Assembly: GCA_963815095.1 (NCBI GenBank)
Contig: CAWFFH010000006.1
Span: 128,001-192,000, forward strand
DNA length: 64,000 bases
Source: Candidatus Bathyarchaeota archaeon
Lineage (GTDB): Archaea; Thermoproteota; Bathyarchaeia; Bathyarchaeales; Bathycorpusculaceae
Direction: 5' to 3'
A model generated the notes under the pieces. The model saw nothing but the letters and a program-made list of their open reading frames with translations. It was not told the DNA's origin and ran no database searches. Shown one piece after another: positions 16,685-46,416 of this stretch (position 1 is its first letter; the number at the start of each line of letters is the position of its first letter). A program made the position numbers and the translations under genes.

Positions 16685-16714
16685 CTAAATTTTCTCCTAA
16701 ATGTATTGTTTGCT

Positions 16715-16786
16715 TACGGTTCAGTCCCGAAGGACCACATCCCAACGGACTATGTTGTCCGCCTGCAATTTCACATCATAGTGACC
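16715..16786 (-). ncRNA. Structured 5' leader of rpl15e (eL15 ribosomal-leader-like RNA)
   Basis: Minus strand reads GCGGACAACATAGTCCGTTGGGATGTGGTCC-TTCG-GGACTGAACC: two hairpins, one with a cUUCGg tetraloop, between the TATA box and the rpl15e start. Confidence 0.65.
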
Positions 16787-42925: not shown

Positions 42926-43615
42926 TTAAGCGACCTTTTTTGATGTTCTTTCGACACCTGAAGCGGCCGTAGCCGACCCTCCTGATTCCGAAACACCAGC
43001 CGCGGCGCCGACGCCCTGAATAGTATTAGGTTGTCCTGTCAGAAATTTATAGGCATCAATAAGAGACGCCCGTGCATTCTGATGATTTAAGCAAACGCTG
43101 CGAGCACCAACATTGCTGCCGACCTCCGAAACGTTCAGTACTCTTAAAATTAAACTTACAGTTGCTCTCGTCGGATTCAAAGTTATATCAAAAGAATTCT
43201 CCTCAACATCAAAACTTACAAAACGCACTGCCACAGCCCTTTTAGCCCCCCACTTAAAAACGACAATAGGCATGCATGTCTGGCTACCTACTACTTGCGG
43301 CTGCATCATAAGTTCCAACATAGCCAATGCCGGATGGACACCTAGATCTGCTGAAGCTTGAATCTGAGACGGTAGATTAAGATCCATACTGTCAAGTTCA
43401 AAGGTTAAATTGAAAAACTCGGATGGGACGCTTTGTATGTTGGAGGATAAGTTTGCGGTGGTTTCTGATGGAAGGGGTTGGTTGAAGGTGTGGAGGAGTT
43501 TTTCCGGATTGTATTGGAAAGTAAAAAAGACGTTCTTTGAAGAAATAGTTGCGTCTTTTGCATCTGGGGCAAGCAGGATTAGGGTTCCTCTGTTGATACT
43601 GGGTTGGCTTGGCAA
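42926..43615 (-). CDS. Contractile injection system tube-initiator-like protein (Afp7/Pvc7-like CIS tube domain)
   Basis: FQYNPEKL, ELDSMD, GVHPALAMLE, FKWGAKR..VR, EENSFD..LNPTRATVSL.LRVL match the eCIS-associated family. Confidence 0.75.
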   Translation of the reverse strand: MPSQPSINRGTLILLAPDAKDATISSKNVFFTFQYNPEKLLHTFNQPLPSETTANLSSNIQSVPSEFFNLTFELDSMDLNLPSQIQASADLGVHPALAMLELMMQPQVVGSQTCMPIVVFKWGAKRAVAVRFVSFDVEENSFDITLNPTRATVSLILRVLNVSEVGSNVGARSVCLNHQNARASLIDAYKFLTGQPNTIQGVGAAAGVSESGGSATAASGVERTSKKVA

Positions 43616-43635
43616 CGTTTACCTACCTTGGCATT

Positions 43636-44133
43636 CTATGTTTCTTTGGGTTCAACCACGGCTGTGTCTCTTTCCCAGCCTTCATTCTCAATTGTTATGC
43701 TTTGTATGGCAACCGCGTTTATTCCCGCATCTAGTTCAGGCAAGGCAACGTACTCAGAAACCCAGCATCGGAAAACCTTGTAAGCTACACATGGAACTCC
43801 TGCCTCGTTGAGTAACTCAATTATTATATCTTTTCGGAAATTCTTAAGAGACATCGACCCGCTGTTTTTATTAAACACCATGTTTGCCCAATCCTCAAAT
43901 TCTTGGTCATGGGTTACGCCACGTTCTAGAATGATCGAGTCATAATGGGTTTTTCCTGGAGACTTTCGTTCAACATTTGTATCACCTCCATCGCGGTGAA
44001 GAATGACGTCCGTGGTGCGTTTGAGCGGACTCATCTTTGAGACGCCCGCAACAACTTTATTGTCCCATTTGACTCTGAACTTGAATTTTTTGTAAGGGTC
44101 AACTCGATGTGTGTTAACACTGAATTGTGGCAC
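43636..44133 (-). CDS. Phage T4 gp19-like / eCIS tail tube protein (Afp1/5-like)
   Basis: DPYKKFKFRVKWD, RKSPG, LERGVTHD.EFEDWAN, FRKDIIIEL.NEAG, RCWVSEY.ALPELDA, ENEGWERD. Confidence 0.92.
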   Translation of the reverse strand: MPQFSVNTHRVDPYKKFKFRVKWDNKVVAGVSKMSPLKRTTDVILHRDGGDTNVERKSPGKTHYDSIILERGVTHDQEFEDWANMVFNKNSGSMSLKNFRKDIIIELLNEAGVPCVAYKVFRCWVSEYVALPELDAGINAVAIQSITIENEGWERDTAVVEPKET

Positions 44134-44507
44134 TATTAATCAACCAACTCTCACTTTGTCGATTTAACTTATTTATGTTTGCGGTTGATTAAGAATTGAG
44201 ATTCAACTCATTTGCAATCAAAAATGCTTTGACCTGTTTCTTGAAGTTTTGATTGACTCCGATAACTTATCATATTTGCTCCATCACTCATTAGTTGAGA
44301 CATAAATTTTTAGGGTCAAGTAAGACATGATTTTCTGGAACTTACTTTTAAAATTAGTTTTTAGTTCCTTTTTTGTTTGGCTTCTTTTTGTGGTTTTTTT
44401 GGGTTTGGTTCCTGAAATGTTGTTGGACTTAATTTTCGCTAAACAAAGTTTATTAATAAACGAGACTCATGATTTTTAACAAGTGAGTTATCAGGGCAAC
44501 AATAAAC

Positions 44508-44738
44508 ATGCCAAACATCCCCAAAAAGTTACGATTCCTCATCCACGGCATAGGCTTAAGCAGCTTAGGCAGCGCCCTATTCCTACAAAGCACCGTATTC
44601 ACAAGCATCCTAAAAAACGGATATTTCAGAGGAATAGAAACAAACTCACTCATACTCTACTCCGAGATAGCGCTGACAGGTATTGCGATAACTTATTTTG
44701 GATACATCCTAGTTCGGTTCCTTTTTCCTAAAAATTAA
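44508..44738 (+). CDS. Small two-TM membrane protein
   Basis: Two hydrophobic helices around GYFRGIE; 76 aa. Confidence 0.6.
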   Translation: MPNIPKKLRFLIHGIGLSSLGSALFLQSTVFTSILKNGYFRGIETNSLILYSEIALTGIAITYFGYILVRFLFPKN

Positions 44739-44940
44739 TCAATTACGTTAGCTCGATTAATTTTTGCAGTTCAAGTTTTCTTGAAGGTTTTTCGACTACA
44801 AAGGTATAGATATCTTTTCTGTCGTTTAGTTCTCTCCAAAGTTACACATAATAAAATGCAAATTTGTTGGGTTTTGAGAAAAAGAACTGATTATTTAAAA
44901 ATGAAAAAAGGAAGTTTAGTTTTTCGGGGCAGGTATAGCG

Positions 44941-46416
44941 TTAGGGTTTGGTTGTTTGTTTTGTTTCTTTTTTTCTTCGTCTTCGCCTTGCCAGCAGCAG
45001 GAACGCTATGAGCAGGAGGATTAGGATGATTAGTGCTGATTCAGCTACGGTGTAGAGGCTTACGGTTTGATCCCAGTTTGCTGTCTCGGTGATGGGGTTA
45101 TTCATGGTAACATATGGTGTGTTATCAGTGCCGCTGTACGAGCCTAAACCGTTTCCAGCCCAGTTTGAGAAGGCATACTGTGTGCCATAGCTATCTGTGC
45201 TCTGTGAATCTACGTTAAAGTTTGCAGTTGCACCGGCATTGTACCAGCCTTGTCCCATGGGATTCCCGTAGGGCGAGTTAATAGCCAAATAATACTGTGT
45301 ACCGTATACTATAGTTTGGATTGTAACTGTTGGAACCTGAATTGTAGCTGAGTTACTTCCCTTGACTATGTATCTGGTTGTAGCATTTTGGCTTACTACG
45401 CTCCTTGTTGTCCATGAGTAATCTCCAGCTTGAATGCCGCTGAAAGTTACGGTTGATGTTGTTGTAGTTTTGGTTTGTCCGTTGAAGGTTATGCTCCATG
45501 ATTTTCCTAAGGGTAAGCCTTGTTCTTTGAAAGTTATTGTGTTGGTGGTTGTAGTTTCAGTAAGAGGTTTTGGTCTTGAACTTTGGGTTGAGATGGGGGT
45601 TGGTGATGGGGTTATTGTCTCGGTTGGAATTGGAGTGGGTGTTGGAGAATCGGTTAATGTTGGTTCCTGGCTTGGTGTAGGTGTTGGTGTCGGAGAATCG
45701 CTTGATATTGGACTTGGGCTGGGGGTTGGCGTTGGTGTAATTGTTGGTGCCGAAGTATCAATTGGTGTTGGTGAAGTTGTTGGTGTAGGTTCTTGTGTTG
45801 GGGGCACGGTGGGTTGGGGTGTTGGAGAAGTTACAGGAGTTGGCGTGGGGGTGGTGGTTGGTGTCGGTGTTGCAGTTGGAATTGGCGTTGGAGTTGGGGC
45901 TGAAGTTATGATTTGTTTAAAGAGAACAGTGTATATTTGGTAGTCTCTCCATGAGTTTTGATAGGCACTTATGATCCATTGATATTGGCCTGCAGCGCTA
46001 GGGTTTTGCAAGGTGAAGGTGACTGAAACAACTTGGTTGGTGCTCAGCCCTTCTCCATGTCCATGTAGATTTATCGTGCCGTTGCCAGTCAGGGTGGGTT
46101 GGGAGATTACTGTAGGTTTCCAGGTTTGTCCTGTTGGGGAGTTTGTAATTTTTAGTGATGAAGAAACCAAATTATTGTATCCCTTAGGAATTGTTAAATT
46201 TACAGAGATTATATTTGATGTGCCGGTGTTCGTTATCGTTATTGCATATTGAGCTGTTTGAGCTGTAATAGCATTGTCAGTTGTTACATTTGCTGTGCAT
46301 ATGAAACTAGATGTTGAACATGCTGAACTAAGCTGAACTGGGATTGCAATTGTCGGAACTAAGGCTATTATGAGGATGATTAATAGTGATGTTGATTTTT
46401 TATTGGTTAATTTCAT
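44941..46416 (-). CDS. Surface glycoprotein-like protein: signal peptide, beta domain, long Pro/Thr linker, thermopsin-like/Ig repeats, C-terminal TM anchor
   Basis: Signal peptide; about 110-aa (PT)n; [16 protein letters not shown]; QYYL...G.GWY; TM + RRRRRKK. Confidence 0.85.
45570..45902 (-). repeat. Pro/Thr-coding low-complexity repeat
   Basis: Tandem ggtgtt/ggagtt hexamers. Confidence 0.8.

What the first reader, a model, noticed from the sequence alone, without database searches (positions are those of the whole stretch)
42926..44133. Orphan two-gene contractile-injection-system module: tail tube plus tube initiator with no sheath, baseplate or spike
Seen: an intact gp19-like tube gene and, 20 bp downstream, an intact Afp7/Pvc7-like gene with an Ala/Ser/Gly-rich tail. 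The flanks are unrelated genes, and no sheath, VgrG/PAAR, baseplate, AAA ATPase or capsid gene occurs anywhere in the 64 kb. Established: eCIS loci are normally contiguous clusters of a dozen or more genes in which these two genes are usually not alone. Inference: either a remnant or split locus, or a minimal domesticated system where an initiator nucleates a sheath-less tube (cytoplasmic filament, nanotube or cargo container) in an archaeon.
Basis: partly seen in the sequence, partly recalled or inferred. Interest (0 to 1): 0.75.

Follow-up and report, generated by a model that had tools for sequence, protein, structure and literature searches.

The report
Baseplate-less tail tube module in Bathyarchaeota
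An archaeal genome keeps only three parts of a phage-tail-like injection machine: a tube and tube-starter gene pair here and a lone sheath gene far away, all under selection and shared by many related species, which suggests the parts were re-used for something other than injection.

Summary
At 43636-44133(-) lies a gp19/TIGR02241-type tube gene. Twenty bp downstream, at 42926-43615(-), lies an Afp7/Cis7-type tube initiator with a disordered Ala/Ser/Gly tail.

The genome (98.45% complete, Bathyarchaeota-like) has one more contractile-injection-system (CIS) gene. It is a one-domain 357-aa sheath, alone on another contig among housekeeping genes. No spike, baseplate, cap, CIS-type ATPase or PAAR was found. 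This held for Pfam models and for the proteins of congeneric full eCIS clusters used as queries.

The pair is not a decaying remnant:
- It is adjacent and intact in 18 of 101 genomes of the genus.
- Median dN/dS is 0.08 for the tube and 0.16 for the initiator.
- 0 of these 18 genomes has Baseplate_J and 1 of 18 has a VgrG domain.
- In two single-contig genomes the module and the sheath lie 0.5-0.7 Mb apart.
- Five module genomes show no sheath at all.

A few congeners hold full eCIS clusters with 58-70% identical tubes. Others carry tube plus an initiator-AAA fusion, or tube plus a Pvc16 cap.

Best reading: a vertically inherited, reduced CIS derivative that builds an initiator-nucleated tube without a baseplate. 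Its function is unknown and I found no description of it in print.

The parts
43636..44133 (-). ORF A: inner tube protein of a contractile injection system (gp19/TIGR02241 type), 165 aa, GTG start
   Evidence: PF06841 2.3e-41; TIGR02241 1.7e-42. Best solved relatives are All3324 at 4.2e-13, the AlgoCIS tube 7adz at 1e-12, and Afp1/Afp5/Pvc1. It is 76-87% identical in 17 congeners, with median dN/dS 0.076.
43616..43635 (-). 20-nt spacer between A and B, with the Shine-Dalgarno-like AGGTAGGT (43621-43628) 5 nt before the TTG start of B. Read as an operon junction (inference).
   Evidence: Sequence read. In 16 of the 17 relatives' loci the listed ORFs are 0-24 nt apart or overlap; in L056 the gap is about 67 nt (coordinates).
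43028..43615 (-). ORF B residues 1-196: Afp7/Cis7-type tube-initiator domain, followed by a long helix (169-193)
   Evidence: PF19266 27.5 bits vs cut-off 27. Profile vs PDB: 9rce_H 2e-6, Afp7 0.009, All3321 0.013. AlphaFold pLDDT 79.4. Foldseek top hits 7b5h_AK, 6rao_G, 9qgl_7A, 6j0n_b, 9gtp_M, 7aeb_M, with TM 0.40-0.47.
42926..43027 (-). ORF B residues 197-229 plus stop: disordered Ala/Ser/Gly-rich tail ending in a basic patch. Eight of 18 orthologs end in K-x-K-(I/V)-S-A, and all 18 ends are K/R-rich.
   Evidence: pLDDT below 50 for residues 201-229; alignment; C-termini listed. The tail is absent from the initiator homologs inside full clusters (L026, L068) and is replaced by an AAA+ domain in the 384-391-aa paralogs.
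44134..44190 (-). Conserved upstream stretch with a TATA-like ATAAATAA (44169-44176), about 39 nt before the GTG. Putative archaeal promoter (inference).
   Evidence: DNA similarity to 10 of the 17 relatives' module loci runs to 44184-44190; in the other 7 it stops at 44102-44144, and nowhere does it go further. Sequence read.

Best explanation
The two genes are a functional, vertically inherited operon. They are what is left of a phage-tail-like extracellular contractile injection system (eCIS) after loss of the spike, baseplate, cap, tape measure and ATPase.

Proposed mechanism:
- ORF B forms the hexameric initiator ring that normally sits between the spike and the tube.
- That ring templates stacking of ORF A hexamers into an open tube in the cytoplasm. 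Neither protein has an obvious signal peptide or membrane span by eye; this was not tested with a predictor.
- In this genome the unlinked one-domain sheath (contig C1:75372-76442) probably polymerises around that tube.
- Without a baseplate or spike the assembly cannot be a triggered injection device. It is more likely a static or slowly turning-over tubular scaffold or container.
- B's flexible, basic-ended tail may tether one end of the tube to a partner.

What is shown: gene identities, fold, conservation, purifying selection, absence of detectable baseplate/spike genes, and the physically separate sheath. What is inferred: assembly, the sheath-tube partnership, cytoplasmic location and the role.
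For: Identity. Tube: PF06841 at 2.3e-41. Initiator: profile and fold matches to Afp7, All3321 and other CIS baseplate chains.

Operon. A 20-nt spacer with a Shine-Dalgarno-like motif. The pair is adjacent in all 17 other genomes that have a B ortholog.

Selection. Median pairwise dN/dS is 0.076 for the tube (128 of 153 pairs usable), 0.163 for B (91 of 153) and 0.125 for the short sheath (74 of 190).

Reduced state is real and common. My tallies from the lists, out of 101 genus genomes:
- 45 have a gp19 tube, and 35 of those have neither Baseplate_J nor Phage_base_V.
- Of the 18 genomes with a B ortholog, 0 have Baseplate_J, 1 has Phage_base_V and 2 have Pvc16_N.

Not an assembly artefact. Single-contig genomes G013 and G110 carry the module and the sheath about 505 kb and 732 kb apart.

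Own genome. phmmer with 198 ORFs from relatives' CIS loci found only the tube, B, the sheath and generic AAA genes. tblastn with the ORFs of loci L025 and L026 gave the same result.

Linkage of the three parts. In G053 a 363-aa short sheath (48% identical) lies divergently next to a tube (68%) and a B-type initiator (map).

Shared history. Distance matrices of A, B and the sheath correlate across the 11 genomes that have all three (Spearman 0.67-0.79; 1 of 5001 permutations as high). These genomes are related, so they are not independent samples.

Origin. Module tubes are close to a supported clade (96/100) of full-cluster and AAA-fusion tubes.
Against: No experiment, expression data or image exists for these proteins.

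The module persists without any detectable sheath in five genomes of 90-96% completeness (0 of 5 with PF04984). The sheath occurs without A/B in 13 genomes. So the sheath-tube partnership is not obligatory and may not exist.

In PVC, deletion of baseplate, tube or sheath-initiator genes prevents particle production (passage seen in PMC12210884). A baseplate-less assembly is therefore not what canonical CIS biology predicts.

B's Pfam score is marginal (27.5 vs 27), and the whole-genome PF19266 search missed B itself. Family searches in genomes can therefore miss weak relatives, including divergent baseplate proteins.

dS is near saturation (medians 1.4-1.8), so the dN/dS values are rough.

One of the 18 tube copies (G111, a 75%-complete genome) appears altered at its C-terminus.
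Confidence: 0.55

Rival explanations
1. The genome encodes a complete contractile injection system whose remaining parts (spike, wedge, cap, tape measure) are scattered. They would be too divergent for sequence methods to find, or they lie in unassembled sequence.
For: The known parts are already scattered (tube and initiator on C6, sheath on C1). The PF19266 genome search missed ORF B itself. Several small proteins inside the congeners' own clusters have no Pfam match. The genome is 98.45% complete in 9 contigs.
Against: Using the congeners' own cluster proteins as queries (198 ORFs by phmmer; tblastn) found nothing beyond the tube, initiator, sheath and housekeeping AAA genes. Two single-contig relatives with the module and the sheath have no Baseplate_J, Phage_base_V or Pvc16_N match. 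The Pvc16_N search does work in this genus (39 of 101 genomes) yet finds nothing here.
Confidence: 0.13
2. The genes interact with viruses. They could be decoy tail subunits that poison the tail assembly of infecting myoviruses (a defence). Or they could be host-kept tail parts used by a head-only provirus, satellite or gene-transfer-agent-like element.
For: The genome holds a head module (terminase, a putative portal by position and size, HK97-type capsid) at the very end of contig C5, with its tail genes unseen. A capsid-gene fragment lies on the window's own contig at C6:97959-98149. Two further terminase-like matches lie on C3.
Against: The C5 capsid matched in only 2 of 100 other genus genomes, both as fragments, and in 0 of the 17 module-bearing relatives. 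It is therefore not co-inherited with the module. No recognisable tail genes lie next to the C6 capsid fragment. The tube, initiator and sheath gave no PADLOC match. All three genes sit mid-contig among cellular genes.
Confidence: 0.12
3. The pair is a non-functional leftover of a lost eCIS cluster, on its way to decay.
For: Congeners carry full clusters with closely related tubes. Some short-sheath copies in the genus are broken (G077, G047, G011:C5 with stop codons; G094 in two pieces). One tube copy (G111) looks altered.
Against: All 18 B ORFs and 17 of 18 tube ORFs are intact, although synonymous divergence is near saturation. dN/dS is 0.08-0.16. The B family has 137 database relatives of constant length. 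The spacer and upstream region are conserved.
Confidence: 0.05

Closest known systems
Afp/PVC-type extracellular contractile injection systems (eCIS), including the full clusters in congeners G005, G016 and G044
   Same: The tube and initiator are homologous. The tube is 58-70% identical to the congeners' cluster tubes. The initiator's fold matches Afp7, All3321 and other CIS baseplate chains. The tube-family tree joins module and cluster tubes.
   Different: There is no contiguous cluster. No spike, baseplate wedge, cap, tape measure, AAA ATPase or eCIS_core protein was detected. The sheath is unlinked. The initiator carries a disordered basic-ended tail that the cluster copies lack.
Cytoplasmic or anchored CIS (Streptomyces CISSc; Anabaena thylakoid-anchored CIS)
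   Same: These are CIS that act inside the producing cell rather than being released (abstracts seen in the listing: PMC10020575, PMC8894136). Chains of the Streptomyces (9gtp_M) and Anabaena (7b5h_AK) baseplate structures are among B's best fold matches.
   Different: Their solved structures include baseplate complexes (entry titles). Here no baseplate or spike gene was detected.
Orphan hcp/vgrG/PAAR islands of type VI secretion systems
   Same: Small islands of tube and spike genes found away from a main cluster (abstract of PMC13098142 seen in the listing).
   Different: [quoted passage not shown] The tube family also differs (Hcp rather than gp19; recalled, not tested). Here the companion gene is an initiator, not a spike, and no main cluster was detected in the genome.
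One-domain Bathyarchaeota sheath described in 'Evolution of Phage Tail Sheath Protein' (PMC9230969)
   Same: A very short (321 aa) one-domain sheath from a Bathyarchaeota assembly was modelled there (passages seen). The 357-aa sheath on C1 is of the same kind: PF04984 plus PF17482 only.
   Different: In the passages I saw, that paper does not discuss gene context, an isolated position or tube partners. I did not test whether its protein is an ortholog.

Membership tests
CIS inner tube, gp19/TIGR02241 type (PF06841) | Sequence match over the curated cut-off | tested here: met
   141.2 bits vs 28.2; TIGR02241 144.5 vs 62.4. The NCBIfam equivalogs CIS1 and CIS5 score far below their cut-offs (47.6 vs 220; 52.4 vs 260), so ORF A is not an equivalog of either.
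CIS inner tube, gp19/TIGR02241 type (PF06841) | Similarity to solved CIS tube chains | tested here: met
   All3324 4.2e-13, AlgoCIS 7adz 1e-12, Afp1 1.3e-5, Pvc1 1.9e-5
CIS inner tube, gp19/TIGR02241 type (PF06841) | Forms stacked hexameric rings | not testable with these tools
   Needs expression and electron microscopy.
Tube initiator, Afp7/Pvc7/Cis7 type (PF19266) | Sequence match over the curated cut-off | tested here: met
   27.5 bits vs 27, which is marginal. No NCBIfam or PHROG match. The profile of relatives hits Afp7 at 0.009 and 9rce_H at 2e-6.
Tube initiator, Afp7/Pvc7/Cis7 type (PF19266) | Fold of the initiator chain in solved baseplates | tested here: met
   Foldseek top hits 7b5h_AK, 6rao_G, 9qgl_7A, 6j0n_b, 9gtp_M, 7aeb_M at E 3e-7 to 7e-6, with TM only 0.40-0.47.
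Tube initiator, Afp7/Pvc7/Cis7 type (PF19266) | C-terminal LysM-like domain (recalled for Afp7; a 'peptidoglycan-binding protein' name appears for 9rce_H) | tested here: not met
   Pfam finds no LysM in B. Residues 201-229 are disordered. The one cluster copy scanned (L026) also shows no LysM; the L068 copy was not scanned.
Tube initiator, Afp7/Pvc7/Cis7 type (PF19266) | Works on top of a VgrG-type spike within a baseplate | tested here: not met
   No Phage_base_V match over the cut-off in the genome (best E 0.16). The congeners' VgrG proteins find nothing.
Complete eCIS locus (Afp/PVC-like) | Sheath gene | tested here: met
   One gene, C1:75372-76442, PF04984 5.6e-18 plus PF17482 9.2e-15. It is on another contig and flanked by DinB, fasciclin, HIT and NurA/HerA-like genes.
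Complete eCIS locus (Afp/PVC-like) | Baseplate wedge (gp25-like, Baseplate_J/gp6-like, T4_baseplate-like) | tested here: not met
   No match at E <= 1. The congeners' homologs find nothing. The T4_baseplate genome search had no positive control.
Complete eCIS locus (Afp/PVC-like) | Spike and tip (VgrG, PAAR) | tested here: not met
Complete eCIS locus (Afp/PVC-like) | Tail terminator/cap (Pvc16_N) and AAA ATPase (Pvc15-like) | tested here: not met
   Pvc16_N: none in this genome, although the same search finds it in 39 of 101 genus genomes. The CIS-type AAA of G044 is only 25-31% identical to this genome's housekeeping AAAs, against 51% to the fusion proteins.
Complete eCIS locus (Afp/PVC-like) | Genes contiguous in one cluster | tested here: not met
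   Tube and initiator on C6, sheath on C1. They lie 505 and 732 kb apart in single-contig relatives.
Tailed provirus or gene-transfer-agent-like element | Head genes co-inherited with the tail genes | tested here: not met
   The capsid and terminase on C5 are sporadic. The capsid matched 2 of 100 other genomes, as fragments, and none of the 17 module-bearing ones.

The most novel reading that the evidence does not exclude
Bathyarchaeota of this genus have turned CIS parts into a family of baseplate-free tube machines built from interchangeable one- or two-gene units. The units are tube plus initiator, tube plus initiator-AAA fusion, tube plus cap, and a lone one-domain sheath.

In the fusion form, a hexameric AAA+ motor would sit coaxially on the open end of a tube. 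This suggests an ATP-driven device for loading or conducting protein into the tube lumen. The tailed initiator in this window would be the version that recruits its partner in trans through the basic C-terminal motif.

This would be the first use of CIS tube parts that does not involve injection.
Probability: 0.25. Interest if true: 0.85.

Novelty: new variant of a known kind. Interest (0 to 1): 0.62.

Why it matters
CIS surveys identify systems from multi-gene clusters (passages of PMC12210884), so units of one or two genes appear to fall outside what they count. In this genus the reduced state is the common one: 35 of 45 tube-bearing genomes have no detectable baseplate or spike gene.

Selection on the remaining genes implies a function that does not need the firing machinery. 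If that is confirmed, it would show:
- how a complex machine is dismantled and re-used;
- a minimal initiator-plus-tube pair that could serve as a simple system for studying tube nucleation, or as a protein nanotube scaffold;

Tried and rejected
- Complex prediction of tube plus initiator (residues 1-200), with alignments: no verdict (score 0.02, mark 0.32). Not evidence either way.
- RNA-seq look-up for 42926-44190: no RNA holder listed, so expression is untested.
- Remnants in the 800-bp gene-free gap upstream of the tube (44134-44940): tblastn with all relatives' ORFs gave only chance-level hits. No Rfam family or tRNA lies there.
- The 181-aa ORF upstream of the sheath as a hidden CIS part: no Pfam match. 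It is 83-97% identical across species, more conserved than the sheath, and present in 10 of 20 sheath loci. I take it for an unrelated housekeeping gene.
- c11, a roughly 310-aa ORF in the 'sheath position' upstream of the tube in 5 of 18 module loci: no Pfam match. Its sequence is hydrophobic throughout, read by eye as a polytopic membrane protein, and this genome's homolog is unlinked on C3. It is not a sheath.
- Weak tube-like stretch in a 251-aa ORF at C3:1304508-1305260: no Pfam match. Left unexplained.
- Search for longer fused forms of B (402-2000 aa): none found, which the tool itself calls weak evidence.
- Earlier findings for this genome: none on record.
- Bacterial promoter and terminator scan: not informative for an archaeon.
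- Literature searches and passages in PMC9230969, PMC11566945, PMC12210884 and PMC10598620: no description of these reduced modules. PMC6509191 is not held. Supplementary files were not consulted, and CIS surveys may list such loci there.

Full report
OBSERVATION

ORF A (43636-44133, minus strand, 165 aa) is a contractile-injection-system (CIS) inner tube protein:
- PF06841 at 2.3e-41, TIGR02241 at 1.7e-42, and a PHROG tail tube family at 2.1e-19.
- Its best solved relatives are the tube chains of the Anabaena CIS, AlgoCIS, Afp and PVC.

ORF B (42926-43615, minus strand, 229 aa) starts 20 nt after A's stop codon, behind an AGGTAGGT motif. Its Pfam match to CIS_tube is marginal (27.5 vs 27 bits), but two independent lines confirm the Afp7-like call:
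- A profile of 23 relatives hits 9rce_H (2e-6), Afp7 (0.009) and All3321 (0.013).
- An AlphaFold model (pLDDT 79.4) has as its best Foldseek matches chains of the Anabaena, Afp, PVC, Streptomyces and AlgoCIS baseplate entries. Chains of phage A-1(L), P1, pyocin R2 and T4 baseplate entries follow. TM-scores are only 0.40-0.47.

The last 30 or so residues are disordered and Ala/Ser/Gly-rich.

THE REST OF THE GENOME

The window is C6:128001-192000 of a 2.69-Mb assembly in 9 contigs, 98.45% complete.

There is one gp19 tube and one sheath. The sheath is a 357-aa, one-domain protein (PF04984 plus PF17482) at C1:75372-76442. It sits alone among DinB, fasciclin, HIT, NurA/HerA-like and ABC-transporter genes.

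Searches for other CIS parts found nothing:
- GPW_gp25, Baseplate_J, PAAR, Pvc16_N and T4_baseplate gave no match at E <= 1. Phage_base_V gave only two sub-threshold hits (E 0.16 and 0.29).
- These genome searches use a pre-filter that missed ORF B itself, and two had no positive control. I therefore repeated the question with close-relative queries.
- tblastn with the ORFs of two congeneric CIS loci, and phmmer with 198 ORFs of ten related CIS loci against all six-frame ORFs of the genome, found only the tube, B, the sheath and housekeeping-type AAA genes.

RELATIVES

Record titles of relatives read Candidatus Bathyarchaeota.

In a draw of 101 genomes of the genus, the family tallies are:

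| Family or query | Genomes with a match |
|---|---|
| gp19 tube | 45 |
| Own sheath protein | 38 |
| Pvc16_N | 39 |
| Phage_base_V | 13 |
| Baseplate_J | 7 |

By my tally of those lists, 35 of the 45 tube-bearing genomes have neither Baseplate_J nor Phage_base_V.

B orthologs (48-70% identical) occur in 17 other genomes, and in all 17 the tube gene is adjacent. Of these 18 genomes, 0 have Baseplate_J, 1 has Phage_base_V and 2 have Pvc16_N.

Intact short-sheath orthologs (57-76% identical) occur in 23 other genomes, and about four further copies are broken. Of the 18 module genomes, 11 have an intact ortholog. Five module genomes of 90-96% completeness have no Pfam-detectable sheath (0 of 5).

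The sheath lies in a partly conserved housekeeping neighbourhood in the 20 loci examined. In the single-contig genomes G013 and G110 the module and the sheath are about 505 and 732 kb apart. The separation is therefore real and old.

SELECTION AND HISTORY

Pairwise NG86 dN/dS medians are 0.076 (tube), 0.163 (B) and 0.125 (sheath). dS is near saturation.

DNA similarity to relatives is confined to 43022-44190, that is, the two genes plus up to about 50 bp upstream. The flanks differ from those of the window. They are shared within subgroups of relatives, however, which indicates vertical inheritance with local rearrangement. Distance matrices of A, B and the sheath correlate in the 11 genomes that hold all three (Spearman 0.67-0.79).

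Three congeners hold conventional eCIS clusters around tubes 58-70% identical to A. Together these clusters contain:
- a long sheath and the tube;
- a T4_baseplate/DUF6760 protein;
- a Pvc16 cap;
- a WHD-AAA ATPase;
- an eCIS_core(+LysM) protein;
- VgrG;
- an Afp7-like initiator;
- Baseplate_J.

In the tube tree, cluster tubes and fusion-pair tubes form a supported clade next to the module tubes. The direction of change is not resolved.

OTHER REDUCED FORMS IN THE GENUS

Three further layouts appear:
- G053, G058 and G103 have a tube (65-70% identical to A) followed by a 384-391-aa protein in which the B-type domain is fused to an AAA+ domain. That AAA domain is 51% identical to the cluster ATPase of G044, against 25-31% for housekeeping AAAs. 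In G053 a short sheath lies divergently beside this pair.
- Twelve genomes have a second kind of pair: a more distant gp19 tube followed by a roughly 200-aa Pvc16_N cap (coordinates; Pfam). Nine of these twelve also have the short sheath.
- About 300-aa Pvc16_N proteins occur in genomes with no tube.

RIVALS

Decay is contradicted by the selection data.

A dispersed but complete system is unlikely, given the close-relative searches and the closed genomes. It cannot be excluded without a fold-level scan.

I tested a virus-linked role because the genome has a head module (terminase, putative portal, HK97-type capsid) at the very end of contig C5, and a capsid-gene fragment at C6:97959-98149. That role is not supported:
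- The capsid matches only 2 of 100 other genomes, as fragments, and none of the module-bearing ones.
- No tail genes lie near the C6 fragment.
- PADLOC has no match for the three proteins.

VERDICT

The finding is real. The genes are a conserved, selected remnant of a CIS without a baseplate, one of several such reduced layouts in this genus.

The most likely mechanism is nucleation of an open tube by the initiator ring. In this genome the tube may also be wrapped by the unlinked sheath. This mechanism is inferred, not shown. Complex prediction gave no verdict and no RNA data could be found.

I found no description of such modules in four full-text searches or in the passages read. Supplementary files could not be consulted.

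Noticed in passing
L065:8747-9922(-), L066:8965-10140(-), L067:9847-11001(+) (genomes G103, G058, G053): Fusion proteins of 384-391 aa: an Afp7-like initiator domain joined to an AAA+ ATPase domain (PF00004, residues 261-386), each directly after a tube gene. The AAA part is 51% identical to the cluster ATPase of G044. G001 has a stand-alone 196-aa AAA of the same type next to a second tube (L022:9055-9645).
   Followed up: partly
e.g. L023:9460-10534(-) in G007; twelve genomes by the coordinates: A second kind of two-gene unit: a distant gp19 tube followed by a roughly 200-aa Pvc16_N tail-terminator (cap). It occurs mostly in genomes that have the short sheath but lack the A/B pair.
   Followed up: partly
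Genus genomes G012, G015, G046, G052, G055, G093, G099, G115 and others: Proteins of about 300 aa with a Pvc16_N domain. Seven of the eight named genomes have no gp19 tube match (G099 has one): another apparently orphan CIS-derived gene.
   Followed up: no
G000 contig C5:163010-169249 (L092:8010-14249): Head module of a tailed-virus-like element: large terminase (phrog_2, 5.6e-24), a 548-aa putative portal (by position and size only; no family match), a 357-aa ORF, and an HK97-type capsid (PF05065, 3.8e-7). It ends 109 bp before the contig end, so its tail genes, if any, are not assembled next to it.
   Followed up: partly
G000 contig C6:97959-98149(-), about 30 kb before the window start (L091:17959-18149): A 190-nt copy (95% DNA identity, 98% protein identity) of the 3' end of the C5 capsid gene, beside a DNA-methyltransferase-like fragment and DUF7347/HTH genes. 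Probably a relic of a related element.
   Followed up: partly
G000 contig C3:853712-854308 and C3:1341953-1343155: Two more terminase-like matches. The second is 73% identical to the C5 terminase. Possible further provirus remnants.
   Followed up: no
G000 contig C3:1304508-1305260(+) (L087:1509-2261): A 251-aa ORF with a 45-residue stretch 36% identical to residues 52-95 of the G005 cluster tube (E 1.8e-6 against this 2.5-kb region alone; 5e-4 genome-wide). It has no Pfam match. Chance or a buried tube-like segment; unexplained.
   Followed up: partly
window 44134-44940: About 800 bp upstream of the tube gene with no convincing ORF, no Rfam match and no similarity to relatives beyond the first ~50 bp. 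This is unusually long for this gene-dense region.
   Followed up: partly
window 44941-46416(-): A 491-aa protein with no Pfam match, an N-terminal hydrophobic segment, a long Pro/Thr-rich linker and a C-terminal hydrophobic segment followed by a basic tail. Read by eye as an archaeal surface-anchored protein.
   Followed up: no
window 16713-16761(-): Rfam eL15-Euryarchaeota ribosomal-protein leader (42.5 bits, gathering score 33.7) in a genome whose relatives are labelled Bathyarchaeota.
   Followed up: no
Genus genomes G077:C12, G047:C166, G011:C5, G094:C11: Short-sheath copies interrupted by stop codons or split in two. The sheath is sometimes lost by decay, even though it is under purifying selection overall.
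   Followed up: no
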